Source: a virus
Taxonomy: Duplodnaviria > Heunggongvirae > Uroviricota > Caudoviricetes
DNA length: 64,000 nt
Strand: one strand, 5' to 3'
Virus record (IMG/VR): IMGVR_UViG_3300022592_000245
Span: 1 to 64,000 of that record
The position numbers and the translations under genes were made by a program. This document shows positions 18,646 through 52,475 of this stretch, in pieces. Below the pieces are notes generated by a model, which was given only the letters and a program-made list of their open reading frames with translations, was not told the DNA's origin and searched no databases. The stretch's first letter is position 1. Each line of letters begins with the position of its first letter.

Positions 18646-29272
<10,627 letters not shown>

Positions 29273-29273
<1 letters not shown>

Positions 29274-30154
29274 TGGCTAAGCAAGTAATCAATATCGGCC
29301 AAACGGCAAATGACAAAAGCGGTGATCCATTACGCACAGCGTTTGCCAAAGTTAATGCAAACTTTGAAGAGTTATATGCCGGTGCAGGCGGAGGAGGAGG
29401 TGGCACAAGTGTAACAGAAGGAACAATGCCGCCAACAAGTCCGGCCGCAGGAGATTTATGGTACGATACAGTTGGCGGTCGTATGTATGTCTATTACGAC
29501 TTAAACTGGGTTGACACTAATCCAGAATTAGGAGGGATACTTAATAGTCTAGAAAATGGTAATAAGATTGTTAGTTTAGGAACGGACGGAACTTTAACTG
29601 TTCCTAGTCCTACTACAAATATATTTACGTTATCGCTTTCTCCTGCACATTACGTATCTACTTTAGGTAAACCGTCACTAGTTTTATCTGGTACGCCTTG
29701 GGTTTTACATGGAGAATTCCAATATGCAGCCAATGGTGATTGTGAACTAATGCTTGATAATATTTGGCCTATTTTAAATAATCCAGGATATTCATCAGGT
29801 GATACATTTACATTTAGTTCGTCAATTCACGGTGTTGAAGGATATGCATTAACTATACAATTAAACAATGTAGTATTGCCGGGAGGCGCAGGATGGACTG
29901 CTAACGTAGCAGCAAGTCAGGCGCCTACATACCCAACGACTGTTAAATCGTTAGGGGCTATTAAATTCACTGCCGGCACTAGCAATGTAGTCATCGGCAC
30001 TGACGGTTCATTAACATTACCAGTAGGTGGAACAATTTCGTATGTTCCTACTACACCTAGTGACTGGGCGGGAACTGCTCCACTAACAATACAAGATGCA
30101 ATAGACAGGTTAGCTACAGTAGTTAAAGCCCTAAATAACGGCACTGGTGCCTAA
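29273..30154 (+). CDS. tail-fibre-like protein sharing the N-terminal anchor domain. Poly-Gly linker
   Basis: MAKQVINIGQTANDKSGDPLRTAFAKVNANFEELY, then GAGGGGGGTS. taATGg overlap with the upstream gene. Confidence 0.6.
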
Positions 30155-30184
30155 TAATAAATATAAGAACAAGGATAAAGAGCG

Positions 30185-32560: not shown

Positions 32561-32573
32561 GGAATAAACAGAA

Positions 32574-35500
32574 ATGACAATGCAACCATTTAAGATTCAA
32601 AGCCCGACACTAAGCATAAACGGTGTTAACATCGATACCAGTGCTCAGGGCAAACTGGTTATTCCAGGTGTTACCCGTGCTGGTACCAGTGTAGCTATCG
32701 AAGTTAACGATACTGGCGACCAAACACACAGTTGGGGAGTAGGTGCCGATTATACACAACTTGTTATCATTGATGGATACCAGTTTGCGGTATTAAACGG
32801 CAATGTAGTAAGCCCAATAGTAGGATGGGAAGTGGCAACGTATGCGGCTAATGCTATTGATGGTGAAGGATACATTGACGGTATTAGCGTAGTAACAGGC
32901 GGTGCTGGTTATACTGGCGAAGCAGTTACTTACTCACAAACTATGTGGGCAACATACGCACCTATGTCTGACCCTATTGCTAACTTTGGTGCAGGGGCTT
33001 GGTTACAGATTCCATTTGCAGTACGTTGCGGCGCTGGCGAGATTCAAAGTGAATTTGGTAGCGGCAGTGGAAGTGGCCTAGTACAGAGATCAGTTAACTA
33101 CCCTTACGGTGAAAGTGGTGACACAGCCGGCACAATGGCTTTAGACCCAAGTGGCAACGTTTATGTTTGTACAGCAGATTGGGCCGATGCCGCACAAACA
33201 TTCGAAGTAGATACTGGGGAAGATTATCTAGCTGGCCAAGCCGCCGGCGACATTGTGTTTAGCATTCCACAATCTGTATACACTAACCTAGCAAGCATTA
33301 TTAATACACAAAATCCAGGCGATTGGACTATTACGTGTTCTCTAGATGATGCCGTTGGAACGTTTGCTGTCAATAGCATTAGTACCTGGAGCTTTAGCTC
33401 AGGTGATTTTAATGGACAACAAGGTTGGGCATTTAACGTTGGAACATTAGGCATCAACTACCCAACAATCAACGAATCTGTACCCGCTGGTACAACTATC
33501 ACTCTAAATTATACAGGCGTACAGCCTGCTATCTGGACACAGTCTAATCTTGGACGCTTATCTGTTGACAATCAAATCCTTACCAGCAGACCGGATCTTA
33601 TTGGTGGCGAAAGTGCTATAGGAGTGTTTAACAACAGTCTTGACATGTTTGTTCAAAGTAATCTAGATCACAGTTTTGCTGAAGTATGGCTACAGAATAG
33701 TGATACCAGTGCTCCAACTGCTAAAATCAATGTTAAGGCCGCAGGTCCAGACTATGGACCAGCAGGAGTACAGACTTGGCAGTTTGATGCTCAAGGTGGA
33801 CTAACATTCCCTGACAACACAGTACAGTCAACAGCCTACACTGGACAAAGTGGATCGAGTGCTGGCGAGCTTTATATATTTGTCAATGCTGATGGCACAG
33901 TCATTACATCAACGGATGGTATCACATGGGGACAACCTCAAGCAAGTGGTGTTCCTGGTTGTGGCAACGATTCAGGCCCGGGTACACAAGGCGGCATAGG
34001 TAAAGCAGAAGTACACGGCGGAGTTATTGTTTACACACGATCAGACATTGGCCTTGACACCATCACTCCACAAACAGGCATGTACTATTCAACTGTAATC
34101 GGCACAGCAACTCTGTGTGCTGGCACTGACTCATTCTTTGGTGACGATTTATTCTGGAATGAAGTACATTACTTTAACGCAACAGCACGTTGGGTAGCGG
34201 TTGGTTTTGCTCAAGGTACAACAATGTATCCAGTAGTGGCACACAGTTTGAACGGTATCAGTTGGACAGTGGTTCCGGCCAATAGTTCATTCTTATACGG
34301 TTACCTAGATGGCTATAGCGCACAGTTTACTGATGTTGTTTACAACGCTGTTTCAAGTCAGTATGTTATTTCCGCTATTCGCACAACACAAGGTCCAGCA
34401 TACGGTGGTATGTTTGTAACCAGCGACATCACAACTGCTATAGATGGCACTAACTGGGTTGATGTTAATATTAACGGTTGGCGTCTTGCCTATTTCCCAC
34501 AGGTTTTCTGGGGAGGCGAAACTGGCCTAGTATTTGTTGTCAATCAAAAGGATGATGGTACATTTGGCTTGTGGGAAGCTACTCCGACTTTTATTAACCC
34601 TACTAACTTGTTGGATCCGGGTAACTGGCAAGCAGAATACGGCTACGGCACTACTAACGGTTGGTTAGAAAGTGCGCTGTTTGATAACTTAGGCTATGTA
34701 CCTGACATCTCGGAGATTGCCTACAACAACAACGTGTTTATTGTTACCACAAGAGATGGACAAGTATTTGTACAACCTGATGCTCCAGCAACTTATGTAA
34801 CAATACCAAGCCCATATACAGCTAACATTAATGATATTGTTCGCAATGCTTCTGGCGATGGATTGCCAACAACTATTCACTTTACTGACATTACTGGTAA
34901 TGGACCAGCCGCAGACGGTGAGAAGATTGTTATCTCGGGAGTAACAAGCCATACAGAAAACAACAGTACTACTCAACAAAGTTACAACGGCACTTACTAT
35001 ATTAAGAACAATGGAGGTTCATACGAGCTATACCTAGATTCAGCATTAACTCAACCGTGGGATACCAGCACCTACTGGCCAGTCGATACTAATACTGGTA
35101 TATTGACTTGGAGTCACGGCGAGTGGCTAGATGCCGCGGGCGTTAGTGGCGACTTTGTGTTTGTGGGCAACGATGACGAACAAGTATTCCGTAGTGCTGA
35201 CTTTGGTTTAACTTGGACACAAGAACAAGATGTAACTGGTCGTTACTTTAATGACTTTGCTTACGGTACATTTGGCAGTGGCGGCGCATTAAACGAACTA
35301 GTAAACGGTGCTCATACTGTTGTACTAGATGCTGATGGCAACTTAAATCTTGAGGATGGCGCCCACTCAGGTCAATATGGTCGTATACAAAGCCTAAACG
35401 GTTATCCAACTCTAATGGCCTACGGTGGCGAAAGTGGCCACGGTGGTCCAGAACTAGACTGGATGGACAGCAATAACCCTACAGCAGATTTCTTTAGCAA

Positions 35501-38435
35501 CACAGCATTGCGTCATTCAATGTACTTAAACAACCAACAAGGGTTGTATATTGGCATGAACGAAAACCAAAAGTCGGGTGTATTCTCAGGCAACTGGAGC
35601 TTTAATACAGATGGCTCATTATCATTGCCACAAGAAAGTATTGTCGGCGGCTTTGTTAACCAAAGTGGTAATGGCAGTTGGAATGAATGGGCAACAGCCG
35701 GTGTTACAGGACCAAACGGTACTGTATATGTTGTAGGCGGCGAAAGCAATATAAATCAATCATTTGTTACAGCGGTAGATAAAACTGGTACTACGTTATG
35801 GAGAAAGAGTATCAACACAATAGATGTTGGTGACGGCTCTGGTAGTAACAATCCACAAGAGATGAACATCAAGTTTGATGTTGCTCATAATCTATTATAT
35901 GCTGGTTTTGACTTTGGTAACAGTACAGGTGTGTTTAGTTTAATACCTGCTACAGGTGTGGTAGATAGCTCTTGGGTTATTAAAGGCGGCACTGATGGTA
36001 ATCAAACTATCTCGCAAAAATCGTTTACTGTTGATGCTGTTGGTGATCCTATTATTGCTGGACACTCGTTCGGTGCTTACAATACCCGTAACGGCTTAAC
36101 TGCTACTAAAGGTACAGACGGCAACGGCTATGATTACATAAGTGTTGCCTTAAGCGATATCACTAGTGATGTTGCATCTATGAACAGCAACTGGGATGTT
36201 GACATTGACGGTACAGGCAACTGGTACGACTCAGACTTTAATACTTACTACGGCATTCCAGCAGTATACAACGGTACTCCGGGTGTGGGCGGTCTTCAGT
36301 TATCAACAGAAGGTACTGCGTACAGCGCAGGCGCAGTAACTGGCTACGACGGGTATGGTATAGACATAGATTCTAGCTTATGGACCGATCAAACTAAGTT
36401 AGGTAATGTACTAGCCCAGACTAACGGTGTACACTTTACAGTTGTGATTGGCAGTTTAACTCCAGGTGTTGATCAAACAGTATATACATTTAGTAGCGTT
36501 AGCGATTGGAGTGTGCCTACTGGTACAGTTTATCACATGGATGGTAACTGGACACTAGTATCCGGAACTGGTACAGTTACTACTTCTACTGACATTATGT
36601 CTATTACCTACGGTTCAGTAATGAAACTTAACCTGTATACATATATCAATCGTAGTAACGGTTTAATATATGATGATGGCGTTAATCTTTTTGATTATGG
36701 AACAAACTATCAAGCTGGCGACACACTGAAGATTCCTGGTAGTTTACTAGGTGGACGTGATGGTGGCTGGATCATGTCAGCTCAGCCTAACGGTACAAAC
36801 GTTAATGGGGACGTATTATTCTTTAGCATAGCGGCTTATCCAACATTGGGAACCGATATTCCAGCTGGTACATTGTTTAGATACCAAGGTGTAAACCATC
36901 TAAATCAAACAGTTGTATCAGTTGTGGACAACGGCGAGGGTGATTGGTTTGTAACTATCACTGGTGGATTATCATCATATGATACTGTAGACTTCTTTGC
37001 TGGTAACGACTATCAGTTTACATGGCAAGGTAGCTACATTTCAGAAGGCCAGTGGCTTCCAGCAGAAGCTGTACGTTTATCAGTGAATCAAACAATCACT
37101 GCACAGATTACATATAACGTAAGAAGTCCCGAAGGACAACAGGCGTTTGTATGGACTCCTAACTGGTCACATACTTACGGTTCAACAAACTATGATGAAT
37201 ACTTCAATGATGTAGCCTATGATGCGGTTAACGATCGAGTACTTGTTACTGGTTATTTCCAGCAAAACGGTAGTGATAGCGAACTTTTAGTCATGTCCCT
37301 GGACAATGCCAATAGCGGTGCTACTATATGGCAAAAGTTTGTCGGAGATAACAACATCGGTAACTATGGTTATAGTAGCAGTATTGATGTTGACAGTAGT
37401 GGCAACGTGTTTACCATTGGTACAAACGACAACGGCCAAGCAATGATTACCAAACAGAACGGTCTAGATGGTTCAATCACGTGGCAGTCTGTACAAACTG
37501 ATCACAACAACTGGAACTATGACCCACAAGGCCGAGTAGACGCAAATGGTGATGTTTATTTTGGCAGAGTATATTACGACAACCGTGTGAATCACTATGT
37601 ACTTGGCCTTACCAAACTCAACAGCGGCAATGGTACCTTAGCATGGTCAAGAAGAATCACTAACATTCAAGGCTACTGGATGTTTGATGGTTGGGATACA
37701 TTCCAACAGGCCATCAGCATTGGTGATGGACAGATACAATGGAGTGGATATGTAAGTGACATCAACAACGACTACAATGATGCCATTACTGTTAGCTTGC
37801 CACTAGACGGTAGCGGCATTGGTACATACGGACGTTGGATTGTAGAAGACGATACCAATACTGCTATACTGTCAGGTAACGATAGCTATCAGATAACTCC
37901 ACCGGTTCCATACGTGGCAACTGATGCTATTACATTCACACTATCCAGCCCAACTATCAACGTAAGTGATGTCAGTGCCGCTGTTATCACTAGAAATAAC
38001 ATCGAGTTGGGCGGTGGATCGATTGTATTTGCCGATGGTAGCGATATTACACAAGCTGGTATTAGTAGAGCACTGACAGATAAGGGTGATAACACTACCT
38101 ACTTGAACTTTGAACACAATGGCAAGTTTATCTACTTTAACGGTAATCAAGGCAGTTCAACCGTTCGTGTTCCGCAAAACAGCGACACCAAACTTCCGAT
38201 AGGATTTACAGTTAGCCTTGTAATAGACAACTTTGACGGTAGTAGTGTATATGTTAACACAAGTAACGATACCAGTAACGGGTTACATGTCAGTGCTGTG
38301 GGATTCAGTCAAACTTATAGCAATAATAACTGGTGGCGTCTTGGCAATGATGGAAACACTGGTATCTACACGCTAATGAAAGTTGATACCAATCGTTGGG
38401 TCCTAAGCGGTCCAAGCATACTAGACGACTATTAA
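32574..38435 (+). CDS. giant virion fibre/structural protein (1953 aa)
   Basis: Gly/Thr/Ser/Asn/Trp-rich beta-structure-like composition, in series with the other fibre genes. Confidence 0.65.
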   Translation: MTMQPFKIQSPTLSINGVNIDTSAQGKLVIPGVTRAGTSVAIEVNDTGDQTHSWGVGADYTQLVIIDGYQFAVLNGNVVSPIVGWEVATYAANAIDGEGYIDGISVVTGGAGYTGEAVTYSQTMWATYAPMSDPIANFGAGAWLQIPFAVRCGAGEIQSEFGSGSGSGLVQRSVNYPYGESGDTAGTMALDPSGNVYVCTADWADAAQTFEVDTGEDYLAGQAAGDIVFSIPQSVYTNLASIINTQNPGDWTITCSLDDAVGTFAVNSISTWSFSSGDFNGQQGWAFNVGTLGINYPTINESVPAGTTITLNYTGVQPAIWTQSNLGRLSVDNQILTSRPDLIGGESAIGVFNNSLDMFVQSNLDHSFAEVWLQNSDTSAPTAKINVKAAGPDYGPAGVQTWQFDAQGGLTFPDNTVQSTAYTGQSGSSAGELYIFVNADGTVITSTDGITWGQPQASGVPGCGNDSGPGTQGGIGKAEVHGGVIVYTRSDIGLDTITPQTGMYYSTVIGTATLCAGTDSFFGDDLFWNEVHYFNATARWVAVGFAQGTTMYPVVAHSLNGISWTVVPANSSFLYGYLDGYSAQFTDVVYNAVSSQYVISAIRTTQGPAYGGMFVTSDITTAIDGTNWVDVNINGWRLAYFPQVFWGGETGLVFVVNQKDDGTFGLWEATPTFINPTNLLDPGNWQAEYGYGTTNGWLESALFDNLGYVPDISEIAYNNNVFIVTTRDGQVFVQPDAPATYVTIPSPYTANINDIVRNASGDGLPTTIHFTDITGNGPAADGEKIVISGVTSHTENNSTTQQSYNGTYYIKNNGGSYELYLDSALTQPWDTSTYWPVDTNTGILTWSHGEWLDAAGVSGDFVFVGNDDEQVFRSADFGLTWTQEQDVTGRYFNDFAYGTFGSGGALNELVNGAHTVVLDADGNLNLEDGAHSGQYGRIQSLNGYPTLMAYGGESGHGGPELDWMDSNNPTADFFSNTALRHSMYLNNQQGLYIGMNENQKSGVFSGNWSFNTDGSLSLPQESIVGGFVNQSGNGSWNEWATAGVTGPNGTVYVVGGESNINQSFVTAVDKTGTTLWRKSINTIDVGDGSGSNNPQEMNIKFDVAHNLLYAGFDFGNSTGVFSLIPATGVVDSSWVIKGGTDGNQTISQKSFTVDAVGDPIIAGHSFGAYNTRNGLTATKGTDGNGYDYISVALSDITSDVASMNSNWDVDIDGTGNWYDSDFNTYYGIPAVYNGTPGVGGLQLSTEGTAYSAGAVTGYDGYGIDIDSSLWTDQTKLGNVLAQTNGVHFTVVIGSLTPGVDQTVYTFSSVSDWSVPTGTVYHMDGNWTLVSGTGTVTTSTDIMSITYGSVMKLNLYTYINRSNGLIYDDGVNLFDYGTNYQAGDTLKIPGSLLGGRDGGWIMSAQPNGTNVNGDVLFFSIAAYPTLGTDIPAGTLFRYQGVNHLNQTVVSVVDNGEGDWFVTITGGLSSYDTVDFFAGNDYQFTWQGSYISEGQWLPAEAVRLSVNQTITAQITYNVRSPEGQQAFVWTPNWSHTYGSTNYDEYFNDVAYDAVNDRVLVTGYFQQNGSDSELLVMSLDNANSGATIWQKFVGDNNIGNYGYSSSIDVDSSGNVFTIGTNDNGQAMITKQNGLDGSITWQSVQTDHNNWNYDPQGRVDANGDVYFGRVYYDNRVNHYVLGLTKLNSGNGTLAWSRRITNIQGYWMFDGWDTFQQAISIGDGQIQWSGYVSDINNDYNDAITVSLPLDGSGIGTYGRWIVEDDTNTAILSGNDSYQITPPVPYVATDAITFTLSSPTINVSDVSAAVITRNNIELGGGSIVFADGSDITQAGISRALTDKGDNTTYLNFEHNGKFIYFNGNQGSSTVRVPQNSDTKLPIGFTVSLVIDNFDGSSVYVNTSNDTSNGLHVSAVGFSQTYSNNNWWRLGNDGNTGIYTLMKVDTNRWVLSGPSILDDY

Positions 38436-38444
38436 GGATCCACA

Positions 38445-40679
38445 ATGAGTATTATACAAGGCGTTATAGCAAGTATGGGGGCAAGTGCTCCCCCTCCTCC
38501 TCCTCCATACTACGGTTCAATCTTTACACTTGAACCCGCGGTGTCAGCATTTAGTGGACAAATAGGTTGGTGGTCTTGGGGCGGATCGATTACGGCGCCA
38601 TCAGTGGTATCATCTAATCCACCAACACGTGATGCTTACACTTATCCAGACGGTGAAGCTGAGTATGTATACACATTTAACGGTACTGACAACTGGATGA
38701 TTAGTCCACAGTTGACCACTACCGGTGCGTGGCCCGATGGTAACATTACCGTCGACATGTGGTTTTATCCAACGTCATACGGGATAACATTACTTGCCGA
38801 ACTAGGTCAAAATACTGGACCAAATGTCGGGTACGACTATAACATGCTGGAAATCGACAGTAGCGGATACCTATTAGCAACAGTATTTCCAAGTGGGCAT
38901 ATAACAAGTCCAAACACAGTGACGCTCAACGCTTGGAATCATGTTTACTTTTTCCACGATGTACAAAATAGCTTACGATTAGAACTCAACGGCAACCTTG
39001 ATGGTTCCCATGCTGTTAACGGTACAGCATCTAGCGGCTACACACCCCCAGGTCAACGATACTTTGGTATCGGTGGTGGAGGTAACGGCACCAACATGGG
39101 CAATGTATCATACTTCCAAGGCAAGATTGGTACTGTATACATTTATGATACTGTAGCACAGTCTTCATACAACGCAACTAAGATTAAACATGCAGTACCT
39201 GAGTTGTTGCTAAATCTTGATGCAAGTAATCCAGCGAGTTATGCGGCACAGTATACAGTAACAGTTAGTGCTGTTACAGACAGCGGAACTAAGATACATA
39301 TCCCTACAGCATTTAGTGCCAACATTGGTAATCAAGTTACAGTGGGATATCCGTTCACTACACAATGGGGCGGTTATCACGGTACAGTGACAAACATAAG
39401 CACAGGTACTGGCTCTTTTGGGGCAGAGTGGATATTTACAGTTGACACTAACGTAGCCATTGGGTTTGCCGGTGGAGACAATATGACATTTGGAAGTGCA
39501 TCAACAACTACTTGGTACAACCTAGTATCAGGCGGACACGATGCTACATTTGATTCAGCACCAGCGTTCTACAGCACTGGTGTTAAGTCCATTGACTTTG
39601 CTGGTTACAACTTTGCCACTTTGCCAGCCGACATATGGTTTAATCAAGATTTGACCATTGTATCATGGGTCAAGGTCCACAGCTACGCTAACTGGGAACG
39701 TATTATAGATTTTGGTAACGGAGCAGGGGTTAATACTGTACTGCTAGCCGCAAGCGCCGGTGTCAGCGGAAACCCGGCATTGAGAACCGAAGGCACTCAG
39801 TTTACAGCCACTAACTATCAACTACCAGTTAACACGTGGGTACAGGTAGCGGGTAGAGTCAAAGCTGATGGTGGAGGCACTATATTTGTCAATGGCGATC
39901 AGATGATGAATTATTCAGGCATGGCTATACCTGTAAATACAACAAGAAGCAACTGTTACATTGGTAAGAGCAACTGGCCTGATGCCTTACTGAATGGCGA
40001 GATGGGTGAGATACAAATCTATCATAGTGCCTTAAGTGATGCTGTTATTACAGCAAACTATAATAGCACCCGATCTAAATATCTTCCCTCTAGTCTCAGT
40101 TTCTCACCAAGTAGCACATCATACCTAGGAGTACAGAATACGCAAAGCGATTGGGCGTTAGGTACAACTTGGACTATTGAGTGGTGGAGCAAAGCAACTA
40201 CCGCATCAGGCCCGGGTACTATCTTTACTGTGATGGGTCAAAATTTTGATGGTAACGGCATTGACGTATATTACCAAAACGGAAACTTAATCATCAACAA
40301 CGGCACAACACTAACTGCCGAACCTACTCCTGGATCATGGACACACGTTGCTTTAGTCAGTAACGGAACACAAACAATAGCGTATCTAAACGGTGGCGCA
40401 CAGTATGTCGGCGGTGCTTGGAATCTCAATAACTCTAGTAATGATCTAGTGATTGGAAAACGTGGGCCTGGAAACTTCCAGTACTTTAACGGCAACTTGG
40501 CTAACATTAGAATCAGTACTACAGCCAAATACACCGATACATTTACGCCATCTAAAACTTATGGTGTTGAATCAGATACTAAGTTGTTCTTAGGCGGTAC
40601 TACACCTCTAGTTGACGGTACTGGCAATCATCCTATAGACAATCAAGGCGCAGTGGTTAGTACGGACTTTCCAACTTAA
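38445..40679 (+). CDS. structural protein with a poly-Pro N-terminus and three concanavalin-A-like/LamG-like jelly-roll domains
   Basis: SAPPPPPPYYG. Three recurring blocks (NAWNHVYFFHD…LNGNLDG…GKIGTVYIYD; NTWVQVAGRVKADGGGTIFVNGD…GEIQIYHSAL; GSWTHVALVSNGTQTIAYLNGG…GNLANIRIS). Confidence 0.55.
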   Translation: MSIIQGVIASMGASAPPPPPPYYGSIFTLEPAVSAFSGQIGWWSWGGSITAPSVVSSNPPTRDAYTYPDGEAEYVYTFNGTDNWMISPQLTTTGAWPDGNITVDMWFYPTSYGITLLAELGQNTGPNVGYDYNMLEIDSSGYLLATVFPSGHITSPNTVTLNAWNHVYFFHDVQNSLRLELNGNLDGSHAVNGTASSGYTPPGQRYFGIGGGGNGTNMGNVSYFQGKIGTVYIYDTVAQSSYNATKIKHAVPELLLNLDASNPASYAAQYTVTVSAVTDSGTKIHIPTAFSANIGNQVTVGYPFTTQWGGYHGTVTNISTGTGSFGAEWIFTVDTNVAIGFAGGDNMTFGSASTTTWYNLVSGGHDATFDSAPAFYSTGVKSIDFAGYNFATLPADIWFNQDLTIVSWVKVHSYANWERIIDFGNGAGVNTVLLAASAGVSGNPALRTEGTQFTATNYQLPVNTWVQVAGRVKADGGGTIFVNGDQMMNYSGMAIPVNTTRSNCYIGKSNWPDALLNGEMGEIQIYHSALSDAVITANYNSTRSKYLPSSLSFSPSSTSYLGVQNTQSDWALGTTWTIEWWSKATTASGPGTIFTVMGQNFDGNGIDVYYQNGNLIINNGTTLTAEPTPGSWTHVALVSNGTQTIAYLNGGAQYVGGAWNLNNSSNDLVIGKRGPGNFQYFNGNLANIRISTTAKYTDTFTPSKTYGVESDTKLFLGGTTPLVDGTGNHPIDNQGAVVSTDFPT

Positions 40680-40696
40680 AACAACAAGGAGCGACA

Positions 40697-41446
40697 ATGC
40701 CACAAAATAACTATCAATGGAAAAGAGATAAAGCAGATCCGCGTGATCATGCTTTTGCTCCAAGACTAACAACATTACCTACAAGTGTAGACTTACGTGC
40801 TAACTGTTCAGCTATCGAAGACCAAGGTAACTTAGGTTCATGTACTGGCAATGCCATTGCTGGTATTGTAGAATATCTATGCCGCAAAGCAAAACGATCT
40901 ACTGATGTCAGCAGACTCTTTATCTATTATCAAGAACGTGTATTAGAAGGAACTGTTAACTATGATAACGGTGCTTACATCCGCGATGGTATTAAAGCTG
41001 TAAACAAGATTGGTGTGCCTACTGAAACATTATGGCCATACACTATTAATAGATTTGCCTATCGCCCTAGTCAAGCTGCATACATTAATGCTGCTACACG
41101 CAAGGCAGTTGGTTATCAAAAGTGTGCTAACTTTGCCGCAGTTAAAGCTGCCTTGGCACAAGGTTATCCCGTTGTAGTCGGGTTCGATGTGTATGAAAGT
41201 TTTGAATCAGATGCAGTTGCAGCTACTGGTCAAATGCCTTATCCTAACAAAGCAACTGAACAACTACTAGGCGGTCATGCCGTAGCACTAGTCGGTTATA
41301 ATGACTCTACTGGTAAGTTCATTGCCCGTAACTCGTGGGGTACAAGCTGGGGCGATCATGGCTACTTCTACATGCCATACCAGGTAATCCAAGACACCTC
41401 AATGAGCGATGACTTCTGGATCATTACAAGTATTACTAACCCCTAA
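40697..41446 (+). CDS. papain-family (C1) cysteine peptidase
   Basis: DQGNLGSCTGNAIAG (catalytic Cys context QGxCGSCWAF-like), GGHAVALVGYND (His), NSWGTSWGDHGYFYMPY (Asn/Trp block). Confidence 0.75.
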   Translation: MPQNNYQWKRDKADPRDHAFAPRLTTLPTSVDLRANCSAIEDQGNLGSCTGNAIAGIVEYLCRKAKRSTDVSRLFIYYQERVLEGTVNYDNGAYIRDGIKAVNKIGVPTETLWPYTINRFAYRPSQAAYINAATRKAVGYQKCANFAAVKAALAQGYPVVVGFDVYESFESDAVAATGQMPYPNKATEQLLGGHAVALVGYNDSTGKFIARNSWGTSWGDHGYFYMPYQVIQDTSMSDDFWIITSITNP

Positions 41447-42029
41447 TACCCTGTTCTTTTAGTTTAACACAAGTATCACACTTTTTGCAAGGTGTGATAT
41501 TTTTTTCTGTGTAGGTAGGATGTCTACATGACCAAAACTTATCTCGTAAGCTAGTTGGCAAGCTGTCATATATTTCACGTTTGTTTAGATTGAGCACAGG
41601 ATAGATTTTCTCCACTGGCGTAAACGCCTGGAGTATTTTATTAGCACGAACACGGCGTTCTTCCAGTGCATGGTTCCCATCATTGGCCTGCATACCCATT
41701 GCCACTTTTACAATGTTGGGATTAGCAAAGCACACATATCCAGCAAAGAAGTTCATAGTGTCTGAATCAAACATGTATTGTTTATTGTAAACAACTGTGC
41801 CTATTTCGCTTTCACTGTATTCAAACTCGAACTTGAGTTCCTTTAGTTCTTTAAGAGCAATATCTACAGCCAGTGCTTCTGCTCGGTGTCTATTTTCAAT
41901 ATTCTTGTTATGAACATGATGTATGTGAATACGATAGTCCTTGTATTCAGGATCTGTTAATAGTTTGTAAACCATACCCAGGCTATCTAGGCCGCCTGAG
42001 TACATGGCTAGGATTGTTTTTTGTTCCAT
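41436..42029 (-). CDS. queC: QueC-like PP-loop ATPase (7-cyano-7-deazaguanine synthase family)
   Basis: N-terminal SGGxDS PP-loop (AMYSGGLDSLGM). C-terminal Cys cluster CRHPT…CKKCDTC, as in QueC zinc sites. Confidence 0.65.
   Translation of the reverse strand: MEQKTILAMYSGGLDSLGMVYKLLTDPEYKDYRIHIHHVHNKNIENRHRAEALAVDIALKELKELKFEFEYSESEIGTVVYNKQYMFDSDTMNFFAGYVCFANPNIVKVAMGMQANDGNHALEERRVRANKILQAFTPVEKIYPVLNLNKREIYDSLPTSLRDKFWSCRHPTYTEKNITPCKKCDTCVKLKEQGIRG
41474..41507 (+). terminator. rho-independent terminator (TATCACAC-loop-GTGTGATA followed by T7), embedded in the 3' coding region of the convergent queC-like gene
   Basis: Inverted repeat plus T-run immediately after the peptidase stop. 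Confidence 0.5.
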
Positions 42030-42466
42030 ATATAAAATGTATAAACCTCGTTAATGGGATGTTCTTCTGGTTGTGGTGTTAGTTCGTGTGCTTTTGGAAA
42101 GTAACAGGCATATTTTGTGGGCCAATTAGGATTAAGAAATGCACGAGCTATAAATCTGTTACAGTTTGCCAATACAATGGGCAACAATCGATGGGTAAAC
42201 TCCATGCCAAATGCCAATGCTCCATCAACTATAATTGTGTCCCAATGCGTATCTAAGTTGAACCAGTCTTTGTTCTTAATCTTAGGATCTGCGTATTTGG
42301 GCTCTAAATCCCATGCTTCAGTTGCAAGTGGTAGCAACAGCCGAGTACTGCCTAGTAACAATACACGCCCGGTACAATAGCTTTCAAATACCGAATAATC
42401 AGCATCATCGGGTGCTGCTGGCCATTTCAAGCTAGTCCAGTATTCTTTATCTGCGTATATATCCAT
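42008..42466 (-). CDS. hypothetical protein, co-oriented with and overlapping the queC-like start
   Basis: 152-aa ORF. Weak resemblance to a methyltransferase motif I (VLLLGSTR) only. Confidence 0.35.
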   Translation of the reverse strand: MDIYADKEYWTSLKWPAAPDDADYSVFESYCTGRVLLLGSTRLLLPLATEAWDLEPKYADPKIKNKDWFNLDTHWDTIIVDGALAFGMEFTHRLLPIVLANCNRFIARAFLNPNWPTKYACYFPKAHELTPQPEEHPINEVYTFYIWNKKQS

Positions 42467-42516
42467 GTGATATTTATTACTTGCAAACTAGCTAAATATA
42501 CTAAAGAGAGCGTATT

Positions 42517-43119
42517 ATGACTATACAAACAATTAATTTAGGTAGCTATGCAAACGACGGTACCGGCGACGACTTGCGTACCGCGTTTACTAAAGTAAAT
42601 GCTAATTTTGCACTATTGCAAGCTGATGTAACCGGTGCTGTTAATCTAGGCACAGGTGCTGGCATTTTTGCTGATAAAAATTCTACAAACTTAGAATTCA
42701 AATCAATAACAAGTATAGACGGCAGCATTGCTGTAACAGAAAGTTCCGAAACTATTGATCTTGCAGCAACACCTAGCATTGTGTATGACACTAATCCACA
42801 ATTAGGTGGCGACTTAGATTTACAAGAACATCGAATTTATAACGGTGATGCACAAACAACTGTTTACGGATTTGACATTCCGATGGTTACTGCATTAGTT
42901 CAACTATTAGTAGAATCAAATCAAATCAATTTAGATTTTAATGGTGGACAAGAAGATATCAGTGGATTTAGTCTTACAACCGGAGATTTTATGAATGGTG
43001 ATCCGAGAGCTGCTAATAAGGATCCGTCAAACGCTAATTTAGATTTTAACGGTACAGGAAACATTAACTTTTTAGATTCAGCTTCAACAAAATTAGATAT
43101 TGATTTTGGCACATTTTAA
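42517..43119 (+). CDS. fibre-associated protein sharing the conserved N-terminal anchor domain
   Basis: MTIQTINLGSYANDGTGDDLRTAFTKVNANFALLQ. Confidence 0.55.
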   Translation: MTIQTINLGSYANDGTGDDLRTAFTKVNANFALLQADVTGAVNLGTGAGIFADKNSTNLEFKSITSIDGSIAVTESSETIDLAATPSIVYDTNPQLGGDLDLQEHRIYNGDAQTTVYGFDIPMVTALVQLLVESNQINLDFNGGQEDISGFSLTTGDFMNGDPRAANKDPSNANLDFNGTGNINFLDSASTKLDIDFGTF

Positions 43120-43131
43120 CAGAGAGTAGTA

Positions 43132-45504
43132 ATGGCGCTTAATGTTTGGACTCAACGCTCGGGGTACTCGTTTGGTTCGTTTCAAGAACGAACAATGTTC
43201 AACGAGCAACTACCTGTAACTAATGATAACGGAGTTACATATTCTATAATTTCAGGACATCTTCCTAACGGTTTAAGAATTAGCGATAATAATATTATTG
43301 GCACACCGTACGAAGTGCCTCGCAATACTACATTTACATTTTGTGTAAGAGCATCCCTAAACGGATCTATCTCAGACAGAACATTTACAATAGAAATTAT
43401 AAATGCAGACGGACCAGAATTTGTGACTTCTGCTGGGGAATTACCAATAGGTCCGTCTGAGCAATTATTTACATTAGACAGTACATATATCGATTTTCAA
43501 ATTGAAGTTACAGATTTAAATCTTAGTGCTACTCAACATTTAAGTTTTTTTATTTCCAAAGATGACGGCGAACTACCTCCGGGACTAGTGCTTACAACAG
43601 ACGGAAGAATTGTAGGATTTGTTCAACCTGCGTTAAGTATTAAACCAAGTGACGGGTCAGGAACATATGACGAAAGTATTTACGATGCCGTTGCATACGA
43701 CTTTGCGTTTAGACCCACAAACGGTTATGATAGTTATATTTACGATACAGTATTTTTTGATTACAATATTCCCTCAAACCCACCAAAAAAATTAAACCGT
43801 AACTACGAATTTAATGTAAGTGTTAGCGATGGAGATGTTGTTGTAAAAAGAAAATTTGATATATTTGTAGTAGGTGACGATTATTTCCGTGCCGACAATA
43901 CATACCTATCTGGAGTATTTACTGCTGACGTTACATACTTAAGAAAGCCGATATGGCTTACTGCCAGCTACCTAGGAACTTTTAGAGCTAATAACTATAT
44001 CACGATTCCAATTCAGACGTACGATACTGATAATATTATAAACTCCTTAGATTCATTAAATCCAGATCACACAGCAAGTGAATTGCCTCCAGGTATGGCA
44101 TTTGACGAAGAGACTTCGGAAATTTACGGGTTTGTTCCTTATCAACCTGCAATTACTAAAACATATAAGTTTACAATTACATCAACTAGATTTAGTGATA
44201 AATTAGAAACTGCATCGTCATCTCGCACATTTACTATTAATGTAATTGGAGAAATTGACAGTATTATCACATGGAGTACAGGTGCATATTTAGGAGGAAT
44301 TAATGCCAACTTTGTATCTACACTGAGCGTTAAAGCAGTTAGTTCTGTACCAGGTGCAACTGTATTATACTCACTAACTAGCGGATTATTACCTCCAGGA
44401 TTAAGTTTAGACCTCGACGGAGAAATTGTAGGCAAAGTTAATCAGTTTAGCGATTCAACACATTTTGGGTTAACAAGATTTTATGATACCGTTAACGGTG
44501 ATAAAATCATTACAACGTTTGACGGAAACACTACTACCATTGATAGAGTATATACCTTTACTGTAGAAGCTAGAGATCAGTACGGCATTAGTGCCATAAC
44601 TAGAGCATTTACTATTACAGTAGATACACCAAATACCATTACTTATAGTAATATTCGTGTAAAACCGTTCCTTAAAAACACCATCGATGCGTGGGCAACT
44701 GATAGTAAATCGCAACGAGATAGATTTAAAGAATTTATTAACGATACAAATATTTTTACACCAAGCAGTGTTTACCGTACAAACGATGCTAATTTTGGTT
44801 TGCAAACAGATTTATCTATGATTATCTACGCAGGAATAGAAACCACAGTTGCTGCCGCATATGTCGGCGCAATTGGATTAAATCATAAAAGAAAACGTTT
44901 CCAATTTGGCTCAATTAAAAAAGCAACTGCATACGTACCGGGAACAAAAAATGAAGTATACGAAGTTGTATACTTAGAAATGATTGACCCCTTAGAACCA
45001 AAAGGTAAGCGTTTACCAAATGTTATTAAACATTTAGGAACCGAAAATGTTAACCTTACAGTTGATAGCAATAACGCTTTTTGGAGTACAGCAATTAACG
45101 ATATGACTGTTGATAGCCAGTATTCATCAAGACCCGATCCTATTGTAACTGTTGACAGTCAGGGTTATTTTGCATCTAATCCTAATCCTAATACATATTT
45201 TCCTAGCAGCGTTACTAACTGGCAGGAAAGAATTAGTAGCATAGGCGCTACTGAAAGAAATTACCTTCCTCTTTGGATGCGTACTATACAACCAGGATCA
45301 AAATCCGAACTAGGATTCCAATTAGCTGTTCCGCTATGCTATTGCAAGGCCGGAACTGCCGACGACATTATTTTGAACATTAAGCATAGCGGGTTTGATT
45401 TTTCATTAATTGACTACACCGTTGACCGATACATAATTGATGCAGTCGAAGGTGCTACCGCTGATAAATATCTCGTATTTAGAAACGACAGGATTACAAT
45501 ATGA
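43132..45504 (+). CDS. structural protein with four or more Ig-like/dystroglycan-cadherin-like (LPPGL) repeats
   Basis: ISGHLPNGLRISDNNIIGTPYEV, ELPPGLVLTTDGRIVGFV, SELPPGMAFDEETSEIYGFVPY, SGLLPPGLSLDLDGEIVGKV. Confidence 0.55.
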   Translation: MALNVWTQRSGYSFGSFQERTMFNEQLPVTNDNGVTYSIISGHLPNGLRISDNNIIGTPYEVPRNTTFTFCVRASLNGSISDRTFTIEIINADGPEFVTSAGELPIGPSEQLFTLDSTYIDFQIEVTDLNLSATQHLSFFISKDDGELPPGLVLTTDGRIVGFVQPALSIKPSDGSGTYDESIYDAVAYDFAFRPTNGYDSYIYDTVFFDYNIPSNPPKKLNRNYEFNVSVSDGDVVVKRKFDIFVVGDDYFRADNTYLSGVFTADVTYLRKPIWLTASYLGTFRANNYITIPIQTYDTDNIINSLDSLNPDHTASELPPGMAFDEETSEIYGFVPYQPAITKTYKFTITSTRFSDKLETASSSRTFTINVIGEIDSIITWSTGAYLGGINANFVSTLSVKAVSSVPGATVLYSLTSGLLPPGLSLDLDGEIVGKVNQFSDSTHFGLTRFYDTVNGDKIITTFDGNTTTIDRVYTFTVEARDQYGISAITRAFTITVDTPNTITYSNIRVKPFLKNTIDAWATDSKSQRDRFKEFINDTNIFTPSSVYRTNDANFGLQTDLSMIIYAGIETTVAAAYVGAIGLNHKRKRFQFGSIKKATAYVPGTKNEVYEVVYLEMIDPLEPKGKRLPNVIKHLGTENVNLTVDSNNAFWSTAINDMTVDSQYSSRPDPIVTVDSQGYFASNPNPNTYFPSSVTNWQERISSIGATERNYLPLWMRTIQPGSKSELGFQLAVPLCYCKAGTADDIILNIKHSGFDFSLIDYTVDRYIIDAVEGATADKYLVFRNDRITI

Positions 45505-46831: not shown

Positions 46832-47092
46832 ATGGCAATGAAAGAACAACAAAGACAAGTTTACCGCAGTATGCAGGGTAAAGAAGTAGATATGCATAAA
46901 CTTGTTATGCAAAACGAAATGACTGTTGCAGTGGGCAACGTAAAAGTTAATGCTCGCGGAGACGAACTAGGCCCAGGCGGACAAATTATCCGTAAGCGCG
47001 AAGAAGTTTTAGCTGCGGCTACTAATGCAGTACCTGCACAAAACAGTCAACGCAAAAACATCGACAATATGGACCCAGAAGGTAACGAATGA
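46832..47092 (+). CDS. hypothetical protein
   Basis: 86-aa ORF with a strong RBS (GAGGAG) upstream. Confidence 0.4.
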   Translation: MAMKEQQRQVYRSMQGKEVDMHKLVMQNEMTVAVGNVKVNARGDELGPGGQIIRKREEVLAAATNAVPAQNSQRKNIDNMDPEGNE

Positions 47093-47487
47093 GAGCACAA
47101 GCAAGTAAACTAAGGCCAATTCAATCTCATATCTTAGTTAGAGATATGAACTTTGCTGATCAACGAACGGCTAGTGGAATATATATCCCTAGCGATGACG
47201 GTAAGTCAGAGGGTGTTAAACCTCGTTGGGCTAGAGTATTTGCAATAGGTCCAGATCAAACCGAAGTTAAAGTCGGTGAATGGATCCTAGTAGAGCATGG
47301 TCGCTGGACACGAGGTTTAGAAGTAGAAGAAGACGACGGAACTAAGTTTACTATCTGGAGAGTTGATCCAAATGGCATCATGATGTCAGCAGATGAACGC
47401 CCAGCTGGTCCGGAGTTTGGACAATTTGTAAGTCCAGAACACGGTTCCGTTCATAACCCACAAGACTTTATTCAACCTAGACTGTAA
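47089..47487 (+). CDS. GroES/cpn10-like co-chaperonin
   Basis: LRPIQSHILVRDMNFADQRTASGIYIPS…VFAIGPD…VKVGEWILVE matches the cpn10 pattern (RPL.DRVLVK…T.sGI.lP…VvAvG.G…VkvGD.V). Confidence 0.55.
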   Translation: MRAQASKLRPIQSHILVRDMNFADQRTASGIYIPSDDGKSEGVKPRWARVFAIGPDQTEVKVGEWILVEHGRWTRGLEVEEDDGTKFTIWRVDPNGIMMSADERPAGPEFGQFVSPEHGSVHNPQDFIQPRL

Positions 47488-52003: not shown

Positions 52004-52004
52004 C

Positions 52005-52475
52005 ATGCATCAGATTAGCTGGATGTTGAGCTTAATTCCAGATGCAGTATTAAACTGGGTTTATTGGGCAATTATTGCCGTAGGTCTTACAGGTGTATTT
52101 GCCGGCTGGTTTGGTAAATTCATCCCGTTTTACGGAAAATATGTACAATTTTTAAAACCAATAGGTATTGTATTGCTAGTGCTAGGTGTTTGGTTACGAG
52201 GCGGATACGATACCGAAATGGCTTGGCGAGCTAAGGTCGAAGAGGCAGAAGCTAAAGTTGCCAAGGCTGAAGAAGCTAGCAAGGATGCCAATACTAAATT
52301 AGCAGACGAGCGTAGCAAAAAATCTAAAGTTCGTACAGAATACATTACAACAGTTAAAGAGCGAATTGTTAAAGACACACAGATAATTGACTCGGAGTGT
52401 AAAGTTGCACCTGAAGCAATTAAAGATTTAAATGACGCTGCTATAAACCCTGCTAAAAAGGAGATTACAAAATGA
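52005..52475 (+). CDS. i-spanin-like (N-terminal TM plus periplasmic coiled coil)
   Basis: TM helices at the N-terminus. Charged helical C-terminus (EEAEAKVAKAEEASKDANTKLADERSKK). Position right after the endolysin. Confidence 0.45.
   Translation: MHQISWMLSLIPDAVLNWVYWAIIAVGLTGVFAGWFGKFIPFYGKYVQFLKPIGIVLLVLGVWLRGGYDTEMAWRAKVEEAEAKVAKAEEASKDANTKLADERSKKSKVRTEYITTVKERIVKDTQIIDSECKVAPEAIKDLNDAAINPAKKEITK

What the first reader, a model, noticed from the sequence alone, without database searches (positions are those of the whole stretch)
40697..41446. Papain-family C1 cysteine peptidase encoded at the end of the tail-fibre module
Clear C1A catalytic blocks are present (QG-x-CGSC-like Cys, GGHAV His, NSWG Asn). 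It sits immediately after the LamG-domain fibre protein and before a strong terminator. It could be a virion-associated depolymerase that degrades a proteinaceous S-layer or capsule, or a fibre maturation protease. Papain-like enzymes are uncommon in phage structural modules.
Basis: partly seen in the sequence, partly recalled or inferred. Interest (0 to 1): 0.55.

Follow-up and report, generated by a model that had tools for sequence, protein, structure and literature searches.

The report
Papain-type protease in phage tail-fibre operon
The gene is a real, intact papain-family cysteine protease of the bacterial "xylellain" type. It is an optional last gene of the tail-fibre operon of an uncultured large phage, the enzyme type is already recorded in phages, and what it cuts is still unknown.

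Summary
ORF 40697..41446 (+, 249 aa) matches Pfam Peptidase_C1 (E 4.9e-20). It matches the solved bacterial protease xylellain (3OIS) over its full length (E 8e-52; predicted-fold TM 0.91). Gln43, Cys49, His194, Asn212 and Trp214 are invariant in 120 close homologues and in about 160 distant ones, and dN/dS is 0.06.

The protein has no signal peptide. It keeps the short N-terminal segment typical of xylellain.

The gene closes a tightly packed 22-kb array of tail-fibre genes. A LamG protein lies upstream, 17 nt away, with an AAGGAG ribosome-binding site in the gap. A 14-bp hairpin with a U-run follows. The canonical endolysin and spanin lie 10 kb away.

In the phage clade the gene is accessory: 6 of 53 assessable loci carry it, always in the fibre region. 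Relatives are fused to a fibre N-terminal module, to a fibre C-terminal domain, to fibre repeats, or (more distant ones) to GH25 / peptidoglycan-binding lysin domains.

My best reading, which is inferred, is a latent fibre-associated protease that acts on a host envelope protein at adsorption or entry (about 0.35). A fibre-maturation role, a lysis-accessory role and an intracellular role remain open.

Xylellain-type C1A genes in tailed phages are already in the literature, so this is a new member of a known kind.

The parts
18975..40679 (+). Array of five co-directional tail-fibre genes upstream of the protease: 3432 aa, 293 aa, 791 aa (collagen-like), 1953 aa and 744 aa (LamG). Gaps between genes are 30 nt or less.
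   Evidence: PHROG hits: tail fibre (phrog_5342, E 1e-55), baseplate wedge tail-fibre connector N-terminus (phrog_677), tail fibre (phrog_3904). ORF coordinates. Only two weak terminator-like sites on the + strand inside the array.
38445..40679 (+). LamG-domain fibre or virion protein directly upstream (744 aa, three Laminin_G_3 stretches).
   Evidence: Pfam PF13385, E 1.2e-40; phrog_8510 'virion structural protein', E 3.6e-27. A LamG protein lies just upstream of C1 in about 9 of 24 non-redundant related loci (at -1 in 8, at -2 behind a 61-aa ORF in L016).
40687..40692 (+). Shine-Dalgarno-like AAGGAG, five bases before the ATG. The 17-nt gap to the LamG gene leaves no room for a promoter.
   Evidence: Read directly from the sequence.
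40697..41446 (+). Coding sequence of the xylellain-type C1A cysteine endopeptidase (249 aa).
40697..40774 (+). N-terminal segment (residues 1-26) ahead of the Pfam C1 domain. It is hydrophilic, has no signal peptide, and carries invariant Asp14, Arg16 and Asp17. It aligns with the N-terminal segment of xylellain.
   Evidence: The phmmer alignment to 3OIS starts at query residue 4. Invariant columns are listed. Model confidence (pLDDT) is 91 for residues 11-20.
40823..40825 (+). Codon CAA for Gln43 (oxyanion hole; papain Gln19).
40841..40843 (+). Codon TGT for Cys49 (nucleophile; papain Cys25).
41276..41278 (+). Codon CAT for His194 (general base; papain His159).
41330..41332 (+). Codon AAC for Asn212 (papain Asn175). 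Trp214 follows within NSWG.
41471..41509 (+). Terminator-like hairpin (14-bp stem, 4-nt loop) followed by a U-run, 25 nt after the stop codon and inside the 3' end of the convergent ORF.
   Evidence: Folding energy -18.4 kcal/mol, z = -2.6; a hairpin is also present at the same position in L010.
41436..42466 (-). Two convergent minus-strand genes: a QueC-like PP-loop protein (197 aa) and a 152-aa protein of unknown function. The pair appears to be inserted between C1 and the gp9/10-like gene. This is context, and probably not functionally linked to C1.
   Evidence: Pfam QueC E 4.6e-5; phrog_1550. The pair lies next to C1 in the window, L010, L007-9 and L018, but is absent in L014, L024, L031-34 and L037.
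42517..45504 (+). Conserved structural block that follows C1 in the clade: a 200-aa protein with a T4 gp9/10-like N-terminus, and a 790-aa protein with Ig-like (He_PIG) domains.
   Evidence: phrog_677, He_PIG, synteny.

Best explanation
SHOWN. The ORF encodes a full-length papain-family (C1A) cysteine endopeptidase with an intact catalytic set. It belongs to the short bacterial xylellain type: no I29 propeptide, no signal peptide, none of the papain disulfide cysteines, and a conserved 26-residue N-terminal segment. It is the last gene of a tightly packed tail-fibre gene array in an uncultured large phage (contig at least 189 kb). Across the phage clade it is an accessory gene. It is under strong purifying selection and is found almost only in the hypervariable fibre region.

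INFERRED. It is transcribed late, together with the fibre genes, and folds in the cytoplasm. As in xylellain, the N-terminal segment probably keeps it latent by lying in the active-site cleft. It probably travels with the tail-fibre apparatus and, once activated, cuts a protein component of the host cell envelope during adsorption or entry. On this reading it is a proteolytic counterpart of the glycan-cutting depolymerases carried on phage fibres.

The window protein has no anchor domain of its own. Any attachment would have to be non-covalent, for example to the neighbouring LamG protein.
For: Enzyme identity:
- Pfam 73 bits.
- 3OIS E 8e-52 over residues 4-246.
- AlphaFold model pLDDT 91.6, and TM 0.91 to 3OIS.
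- Gln43, Cys49, His194, Asn212 and Trp214 invariant.
- dN/dS 0.063 against L010.

Operon position:
- 17-nt gap plus a ribosome-binding site.
- Gaps of 30 nt or less across 18975-41446.
- The only long + strand hairpin follows the gene.

Fibre context:
- PHROG tail-fibre hits for the upstream genes.
- In 24 non-redundant related loci C1 is almost always co-oriented with, and 40 nt or less behind, large fibre-like genes.
- A LamG protein lies just upstream in about 9 of them.

Physical link to fibres in relatives:
- P0051, P0054, P0103 and P0124 (61-70% identical) carry an N-terminal module of about 75-85 aa whose first ~30-55 residues match the N-terminus of the window's 791-aa collagen-like fibre (E 1.5e-5 to 1e-4 for three of them; P0054 only 0.04).
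- P0027 (75% identical, a complete ORF) has C1 behind a domain that forms the C-terminus of fibre proteins in L015 and L018 (E 1e-39).
- P0125 has fibre-type repeats inserted into the C1 domain.
- P0134 is fused to a DUF1353 / 'tail assembly chaperone' domain.

Envelope target:
- P0154 is Lipase_3 + GH25 + C1.
- The predicted endolysin of Alicyclobacillus phage MMB025 is C1 + Big_1 + a glycoside-hydrolase-like domain + PG_binding_1.
- The C1 gene of phage THSA-485A directly follows its GH25 endolysin.

Other points:
- The patchy presence (6 of 53 loci) resembles host-range modules.
- Other enzymes are attached to, or sit in, the same module in relatives: an S8 protease next to C1 in L007, and a haem peroxidase fused to the 790-type structural protein in L014.
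Against: - There is no proteomic, expression or biochemical evidence of any kind.
- The window protein lacks the fibre adaptor, so virion incorporation is unproven.
- A free catalytic thiol is a poor fit for an extracellular enzyme in oxic water (established chemistry of cysteine proteases).
- Xylellain-type proteins without signal peptides are regarded as intracellular (PMC10380794).
- The lysin fusions are in relatives only 34-52% identical. They could equally point to action at lysis rather than at entry.
- Non-structural accessory genes (Pirin, 2OG-Fe(II) oxygenase, QueC-like) occupy the same region, so position alone does not prove a structural role.
- In the 595-kb phage LR756511 and in Burkholderia phage FLC9 the homologue is an isolated gene with no recognisable fibre neighbours.
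Confidence: 0.35

Rival explanations
1. Trans-acting fibre maturation or assembly protease. The enzyme stays in the cytoplasm and trims one or more fibre proteins (for example removing a chaperone-like end) during tail-fibre assembly. It is not needed in the finished virion.
For: - It is the last gene of the fibre operon.
- It has no signal peptide, and the reducing cytoplasm suits a cysteine protease.
- An N-terminal latency segment would limit off-target cleavage (plus my recollection of the xylellain paper).
- The P0134 fusion to a 'tail assembly chaperone'-type domain.
- The P0027 fusion behind a fibre C-terminal domain. This is reminiscent of self-cleaving C-terminal chaperone domains of fibres (S74 type, established knowledge).
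Against: - The gene is missing from 47 of 53 related loci that keep similar fibre arrays.
- The upstream fibre genes differ widely between carriers, so no constant substrate is apparent.
- The window's fibre proteins share no common C-terminal module that could be a cleavage target.
- The lysin-domain fusions are not explained by this reading.
Confidence: 0.2
2. Lysis-stage accessory enzyme. The protease accumulates late in the cytoplasm and reaches the envelope when the holin opens the membrane. It then cuts envelope proteins or peptide links from inside, helping the endolysin and spanin to release progeny.
For: - Fusions and adjacency of homologues with endolysin domains: MMB025 (C1 + glycoside-hydrolase-like + PG_binding_1), P0154 (Lipase_3 + GH25 + C1), and THSA-485A, where C1 lies directly after the GH25 endolysin.
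- BFVD structural neighbours named 'Peptidoglycan binding-like' and 'N-acetylmuramidase'.
- No signal peptide, as for holin-dependent endolysins.
- Presumed late expression.
Against: - The window has its own lysis cassette 10 kb away: an endolysin (phrog_181, E 7.7e-75, at 51371-52003) and an Rz-like spanin (52005-52475). C1 is not part of it.
- The lysin fusions are in distant relatives, and where a host is known they come from Gram-positive hosts.
- The close relatives are fused to fibre modules instead.
Confidence: 0.15
3. Intracellular host-directed protease. It either degrades host proteins (takeover or amino-acid recycling) or removes a host defence factor. One example would be stripping a ubiquitin-like tag that a defence system attaches to tail proteins.
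For: - No signal peptide.
- Patchy, accessory distribution, typical of host-interaction genes.
- It shares the region with other non-structural accessory genes: Pirin, 2OG-Fe(II) oxygenase, QueC-like, ferritin.
- In LR756511 and FLC9 the homologue is a stand-alone gene outside any fibre context.
- The substrate of xylellain is unknown even in bacteria (PMC12090721).
Against: - No fusion partner found is cytoplasmic or regulatory, apart from zinc ribbons in a few distant multi-domain proteins.
- The tight operon position predicts late expression, which is too late for takeover.
- C1A enzymes are not known as isopeptidases for ubiquitin-like tags (established knowledge).
- No PADLOC or defence analysis was done.
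Confidence: 0.15
4. Peptidoglycan stem-peptide peptidase. The C1 domain plays the role that CHAP or NlpC/P60 domains play in tail lysins and endolysins.
For: - It occupies the 'peptidase' slot in lysin-like multi-domain proteins.
- There is a weak second Pfam hit to Peptidase_C39_2 (24.9 bits against a cutoff of 24).
- Gordonia and Mycobacterium phage lysins appear as very distant fold matches.
Against: - The protein is about 40% identical in the structural alignment to xylellain. From memory (Nogaroto 2006, Leite 2013, not held in the library), xylellain cleaves ordinary peptide substrates.
- No C1A enzyme is known to cut peptidoglycan.
- The matches to true lysins are at E 1e-4 to 1e-3 with TM 0.4-0.5.
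Confidence: 0.07

Closest known systems
Xylellain (Xylella fastidiosa C1A cysteine protease, PDB 3OIS)
   Same: Best match by sequence (E 8e-52, residues 4-246) and by fold (TM 0.91). It shares the same short N-terminal segment in place of an I29 propeptide, the same catalytic residues, and the lack of a signal peptide.
   Different: Xylellain is a chromosomal bacterial protein that has been linked to plant-vascular pathogens (PMC12090721). Here the gene is the last one in a phage tail-fibre operon. Identity is only about 40% in the structural alignment. Nucleotide regulation and the active-site plug reported for xylellain are recalled from memory and were not tested here.
Xylellain-type C1A peptidases already noted in Caudoviricetes and Mimiviridae (Kordis and Turk 2023, PMC10380794)
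   Same: Same subfamily. BFVD holds an uncultured Caudovirales Peptidase_C1 (A0A6J5TCZ4, TM 0.93) and homologues from Edafosvirus and Terrestrivirus.
   Different: That paper records horizontal acquisition only. It says nothing about genomic position, fibre fusions or function. The tail-fibre association described here was not found in the searched literature.
Phage tailspike or fibre depolymerases (virion-borne enzymes that cut capsule, LPS or exopolysaccharide)
   Same: Encoded in the fibre module and patchily distributed. Relatives carry an N-terminal fibre-type adaptor.
   Different: Known depolymerases are glycanases, lyases or esterases, typically with trimeric beta-helix folds. This is a monomer-type papain fold, the target would be a protein, and the window protein has no adaptor.
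CHAP and NlpC/P60 cysteine peptidase domains of phage tail lysins and endolysins
   Same: Same clan (papain-like fold, Cys-His). The C1 domain takes the equivalent slot in MMB025 ORF0095 and in P0154.
   Different: A different family, with no Pfam match to CHAP or NlpC/P60. Those enzymes cut peptidoglycan, which has not been shown for any C1A enzyme.
Baculovirus V-cath (viral cathepsin)
   Same: A virus-encoded C1A protease expressed late, which degrades host structures to aid release (established knowledge; PMC10380794).
   Different: V-cath is of eukaryotic cathepsin origin with a propeptide and a secretory route. It is only a weak fold match here (E 1.7e-5, TM 0.40).

Membership tests
Peptidase C1A (papain family, Pfam PF00112) | Profile match above the curated threshold across the domain | tested here: met
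   73 bits against a cutoff of 20.7; residues 27-231 cover profile positions 1-207 of 220.
Peptidase C1A (papain family, Pfam PF00112) | Catalytic Cys-His dyad together with the oxyanion-hole Gln and the orienting Asn (papain 25/159/19/175) | tested here: met
   Cys49, His194, Gln43 and Asn212 align with papain and xylellain. They are invariant in the homologues.
Peptidase C1A (papain family, Pfam PF00112) | Two-lobe papain fold | tested here: met
   AlphaFold model with pLDDT 91.6 and pTM 0.91. The PDB matches listed (top 50 of 301 at E<=0.001) are all C1A enzymes. This is a predicted structure, not a solved one.
Peptidase C1A (papain family, Pfam PF00112) | Proteolytic activity that is sensitive to E-64 | not testable with these tools
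   Needs recombinant enzyme.
Xylellain-type short bacterial C1A | No I29 propeptide and no signal peptide; a short conserved N-terminal segment is present instead | tested here: met
   There are only 26 residues before the domain, and they are hydrophilic. They align with 3OIS from residue 4. Asp14, Arg16 and Asp17 are invariant.
Xylellain-type short bacterial C1A | The N-terminal segment lies in the active-site cleft (latency) | not testable with these tools
Only pLDDT (91 for residues 11-20) and short strands at residues 7-9 and 18 could be seen.
Xylellain-type short bacterial C1A | Closer to bacterial than to eukaryotic C1A enzymes | tested here: met
   3OIS gives E 8e-52; the best eukaryotic hit (cathepsin C) gives 4e-11.
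Virion-borne fibre or tailspike depolymerase | Encoded within the tail-fibre module | tested here: met
Virion-borne fibre or tailspike depolymerase | Own N-terminal domain that anchors the enzyme to the tail | tested here: not met
   The window protein starts directly with the xylellain-type segment. The adaptor is present only in relatives P0051, P0054, P0103 and P0124.
Virion-borne fibre or tailspike depolymerase | Presence in purified virions | not testable with these tools
   No proteomic data were found for any homologue.
Endolysin / lysis cassette member | Located next to the holin, endolysin or spanin genes | tested here: not met
   The endolysin (51371-52003) and the Rz-like spanin (52005-52475) are 10 kb downstream.
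Endolysin / lysis cassette member | Catalytic domain of a family known to cleave peptidoglycan | tested here: not met
   Pfam gives only Peptidase_C1, a borderline Peptidase_C39_2 hit and a sub-threshold BtrH_N hit (18.1 bits vs cutoff 29.7). NCBIfam gives nothing.
Self-cleaving fibre chaperone domains (S74 / G2 type) and prohead proteases | Match to those peptidase families | tested here: not met
   No such hit in Pfam, PHROGs or NCBIfam.

The most novel reading that the evidence does not exclude
The protease would be the first example of a protein-cutting depolymerase carried on phage tail fibres. A latent cysteine protease would dock to the fibre network, through an adaptor in some phages and non-covalently here. 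On contact it would open a proteinaceous surface layer of the host. It would be part of a wider habit of this abundant uncultured phage clade of attaching enzymes to its tail apparatus: C1 protease, S8 protease, haem peroxidase.
Probability: 0.25. Interest if true: 0.7.

Novelty: new member of a known kind. Interest (0 to 1): 0.42.

Why it matters
Known enzymes on phage fibres cut sugars. A fibre-linked protease would widen the repertoire of ways in which phages breach cell surfaces. It would also give a handle on hosts whose outermost barrier is protein.

The family is very abundant in metagenomes, with more than 8000 homologues. In close relatives it is fused to fibre modules, and in more distant ones to lysin domains. 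No member, phage or bacterial, has a known natural substrate. A single biochemical and proteomic study would therefore annotate thousands of genes.

If the enzyme turns out to be an ordinary intracellular accessory protease, the finding is routine.

Tried and rejected
- Megablast of 38000-43000 against deposited phages found no match. A tblastn search with the LamG protein also found no match. There is therefore no cultured relative to borrow annotation from.
- NCBIfam gave nothing for C1 or its neighbours.
- A search for T4-type late promoters (TATAAATA) gave 2 hits against 7.8 expected. None is near the fibre array, so the late-promoter type is unknown. The sigma-70 scan was at shuffle level.
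- The scan of bacterial genomes gave only three MAG hits at 50-53% identity, with no host clue.
- The xylellain structure paper is not held in the library. Its content is quoted from memory only.
- PDB sequence searches with the fibre-type adaptor and with the N-terminal domain of P0027 found nothing.
- I looked for a shared C-terminal module in the window's fibre proteins, as a possible cleavage target. There is none.
- The context of the homologue in the 595-kb phage LR756511 and in FLC9 was uninformative.
- Pseudogene or chance ORF: rejected on dN/dS 0.063 and the invariant catalytic residues.
- Prohead protease: rejected. There is no family match, and no head genes were identified among the neighbouring genes examined.
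- Functional coupling with the QueC-like and 152-aa gene pair: judged unlikely. The pair is absent from most C1 loci, and its orientation relative to C1 varies.
- Literature searches for a phage C1A function returned nothing relevant.
Full report
1. WHAT IS THERE

ORF 40697..41446 on the + strand starts with ATG, five bases after an AAGGAG, and encodes 249 residues. It scores 73 bits on Pfam Peptidase_C1 against a cutoff of 20.7 (E 4.9e-20), covering almost the whole profile. It also matches PHROG 16701 'peptidase'.

Against all PDB sequences the best hit by far is 3OIS, the Xylella fastidiosa cysteine protease xylellain. The E-value is 8e-52, aligned over residues 4-246. The eukaryotic cathepsins, cruzain, papain-like plant enzymes and mite allergens follow at 1e-7 to 1e-11.

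An AlphaFold model built on 51 homologues is confident (pLDDT 91.6, pTM 0.91). It superposes on 3OIS with TM 0.91.

They read QGNLGSCTGNA (Gln43, Cys49), GGHAV (His194) and RNSWG (Asn212, Trp214). These five residues are invariant in all 120 close homologues. They are also invariant in every aligned domain of 150 representatives of 50%-identity clusters, gaps aside.

Against the 90%-identical relative in L010, dN/dS is 0.063. The gene therefore encodes an active enzyme under strong constraint.

2. WHAT KIND OF C1A ENZYME

There is no I29-type propeptide. Only 26 residues precede the Pfam domain. They are hydrophilic (MPQNNYQWKRDKADPRDHAFAPRLTT), so there is no Sec or Tat signal, no lipobox and no membrane span; this can be read directly from the sequence.

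This segment aligns with the N-terminal segment of xylellain. It contains invariant Asp14, Arg16 and Asp17. None of the papain disulfide cysteines is present, and only Cys49 is invariant.

From memory of Leite et al. 2013 (FEBS Lett 587:339; not held in the library), the corresponding segment of xylellain lies in the active-site cleft and restrains activity, and a nucleotide bound outside the site modulates the kinetics.

A published survey calls these enzymes 'short' bacterial C1A peptidases. It notes that forms without signal peptides are intracellular. It also notes that xylellain-type genes were acquired horizontally by Mimiviridae and by myo- and siphoviruses (PMC10380794). The natural substrate of xylellain is unknown (PMC12090721).

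3. THE SURROUNDINGS IN THE WINDOW

Genes 18975..40679 form one co-directional array with gaps of 30 nt or less:
- a 3432-aa tail-fibre protein;
- a 293-aa protein with a T4 gp9/10-like connector N-terminus;
- a 791-aa collagen-like tail fibre;
- a 1953-aa protein without matches;
- the 744-aa protein with three LamG stretches ('virion structural protein').

The protease gene follows after 17 nt. Twenty-five bases past its stop codon lies the only long hairpin on the + strand in the whole stretch. It has 14 pairs, only three of them G-C, then a U-run. Its folding energy is -18.4 kcal/mol, z = -2.6. It sits inside the 3' end of a convergent ORF, and a hairpin is kept at the same place in L010.

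Co-transcription with the fibre genes is therefore a reasonable inference, but it is not shown. No T4-type late promoter motif is enriched.

Downstream come two minus-strand genes: a QueC-like PP-loop protein and a 152-aa protein of unknown function. After them come a 200-aa gp9/10-like protein and a 790-aa Ig-domain protein.

The phage's recognisable lysis genes are elsewhere. An endolysin (phrog_181, E 7.7e-75) lies at 51371-52003, followed by a weak Rz-like spanin match at 52005-52475.

The window is identical to an ENA metagenome contig of 189 kb. It has no close relative among 50,697 deposited phage genomes.

4. COMPARATIVE EVIDENCE

Homologues are rare in deposited phages. Only 21 records have one, and the best are a 595-kb uncultured phage (53% identity), Burkholderia jumbo phage FLC9 (37.5%) and the Lak megaphages (about 28%).

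They are very common in metagenomes. More than 8000 hits were found, with the top 120 at least 64% identical. There are 3351 clusters at E<1e-30.

Bacterial reference genomes gave only three hits, at 50-53% identity. That scan used exact peptide patterns and so finds only close relatives. It turned up no bacterial copy more than 53% identical.

In 24 non-redundant loci selected through the protease, the gene is almost always co-oriented with large fibre-like genes and 40 nt or less behind them. A LamG protein lies just upstream in about 9 loci (directly in 8), and a Pirin in 3.

In many loci it lies immediately before the conserved block of gp9/10-like protein, 790-aa protein, Cpn10, clamp loader, dCMP deaminase and PhoH.

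I then sampled the clade independently of the protease, through the 790-aa protein. This found 484 or more IMG/VR relatives, of which 80 were fetched. Only 6 of 53 assessable loci carry the protease. In each of them it is on the + strand just upstream of the gp9/10-like gene (directly in five; about 1.4 kb away in L064). Even close relatives differ: L050 has it and L048 lacks it.

The gene is therefore accessory, like the host-range genes around it.

5. FUSIONS

All informative partners are tail or envelope modules.

Close relatives:
- P0051, P0054, P0103 and P0124 (61-70% identical) start with a module of about 75-85 aa (FPxNPxxGQxY...W.G..W). Its first ~30-55 residues match the N-terminus of the window's 791-aa fibre (E 1.5e-5 to 1e-4; P0054 only 0.04). 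The whole module also exists as a free 66-69-aa ORF in L015 and L018.
- In L042 the P0103 gene sits between a LamG gene and three Mtd_N fibre genes.
- P0027 (75% identical, a complete ORF) places the protease behind a 150-aa domain. That domain forms the C-terminus of fibre proteins in L015 and L018 (45% identity, E 1e-39).
- P0125 has fibre-type repeats inserted into the protease.
- P0134 is fused to a DUF1353 / 'tail assembly chaperone' domain.

More distant relatives:
- P0154 (52% identical) is Lipase_3 + GH25 + C1.
- The predicted endolysin of Alicyclobacillus phage MMB025 is C1 + Big_1 + a glycoside-hydrolase-like domain + PG_binding_1. Its authors also read it as peptidase plus muramidase.
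- In phage THSA-485A the C1 gene follows the GH25 endolysin.

6. INTERPRETATION

It is firmly shown that this is an intact xylellain-type C1A cysteine endopeptidase encoded as an optional last gene of a phage tail-fibre array. I put this at about 0.97.

How it is used is inferred. I favour a latent protease that travels with the fibre apparatus and cuts a host envelope protein at adsorption or entry (about 0.35). Three observations lead me there:
- close relatives are physically fused to fibre modules;
- more distant ones are fused to envelope-degrading domains;
- the gene comes and goes like a host-range determinant.

The main weaknesses are:
- the window protein has no anchor domain;
- an exposed catalytic thiol is awkward outside the cell;
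- non-structural accessory genes share the region;
- homologues in two unrelated jumbo phages are not in fibre modules.

The rivals are:
- a cytoplasmic fibre-maturation protease (0.2). It is weakened by the gene's absence from most relatives and by the lack of a common target module.
- a lysis-stage helper (0.15). It is weakened by the separate lysis cassette.
- an intracellular host-directed or counter-defence protease (0.15).
- a peptidoglycan peptidase (0.07).

7. NOVELTY

The enzyme type, and its presence in tailed phages, are already recorded (PMC10380794). UniProt/BFVD holds annotated phage copies. I therefore rate this as a new member of a known kind.

The consistent tail-fibre context and the fibre-module fusions were not found in the searched literature. 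They make a testable hypothesis of moderate interest.

Noticed in passing
window 41436-42466 (minus strand): A gene pair: a QueC-like PP-loop protein (197 aa, with C-terminal CxxCxxC) and a 152-aa protein with no family match. The pair travels together and lies next to the C1 gene in several phages: downstream in the window and L010, upstream in L007-9 and L018, and nearby in L042. Its function is unknown.
   Followed up: partly
window 18975, 29273 and 42517 (N-termini of the 3432-aa, 293-aa and 200-aa proteins): Three proteins share the same 35-40-residue N-terminus (GxxANDGTGDxLRxAFxKVNxNF, T4 gp9/10-like). This suggests that several different fibres dock to the same baseplate site.
   Followed up: partly
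P0249 and P0248 (distant C1 homologues): Two independent inteins interrupt the protease. One is inserted exactly before the catalytic Cys (…DQGNLGS|C-intein-N|CTANA…). The other follows residue 198, close to His194. Inteins in a phage accessory protease are unusual.
   Followed up: partly
L014 1388-5596: A single 1403-aa ORF joins an animal-type haem peroxidase domain to the conserved 790-aa structural protein that follows C1 in this clade. The peroxidase match is Pfam An_peroxidase E 6e-115 and PDB lactoperoxidase 8s6c E 3.5e-75. This looks like an oxidative enzyme attached to a tail protein.
   Followed up: partly
L007 5117-7426 (also L008, L009): A 769-aa protein with a subtilase (Peptidase_S8) domain lies directly after the C1 gene. 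That puts two different proteases side by side in the fibre region.
   Followed up: no
L004, L006, L007, L011, L019, L020, L042 (regions next to C1): The fibre region of related phages is interspersed with non-structural accessory genes: Pirin, 2OG-Fe(II) oxygenase, ferritin, fatty-acid desaturase and a CapK-like gene. It also contains many proteins with Mtd_N domains, the N-terminal domain of a diversity-generating-retroelement target. No reverse transcriptase was looked for.
   Followed up: no
L014, L022, L027, L030, L031, L033, L034, L037 (contig ends): Many IMG/VR contigs begin within a few hundred bases upstream of the C1 gene, or inside it. Assemblies appear to break in the fibre genes just upstream, as expected for a hypervariable or micro-diverse region.
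   Followed up: no
window 51371-52475: A candidate lysis cassette: a GH19-type endolysin (phrog_181, E 7.7e-75) followed by a weak Rz-like spanin match. This suggests a Gram-negative host.
   Followed up: partly
window 55597-57879 and 47089-47487: The phage encodes a full-length ClpA-like AAA+ ATPase (phrog_4871, E 3e-251; about 40-44% identical to those of jumbo phages such as PA5oct) and a Cpn10 co-chaperonin. Together with the C1 gene, these are further protein-quality-control or proteolysis genes.
   Followed up: no
window 7375-8664 and 3495-5048: A radical-SAM protein and an ATP-dependent DNA ligase lie upstream of the structural region. They were not examined further.
   Followed up: no
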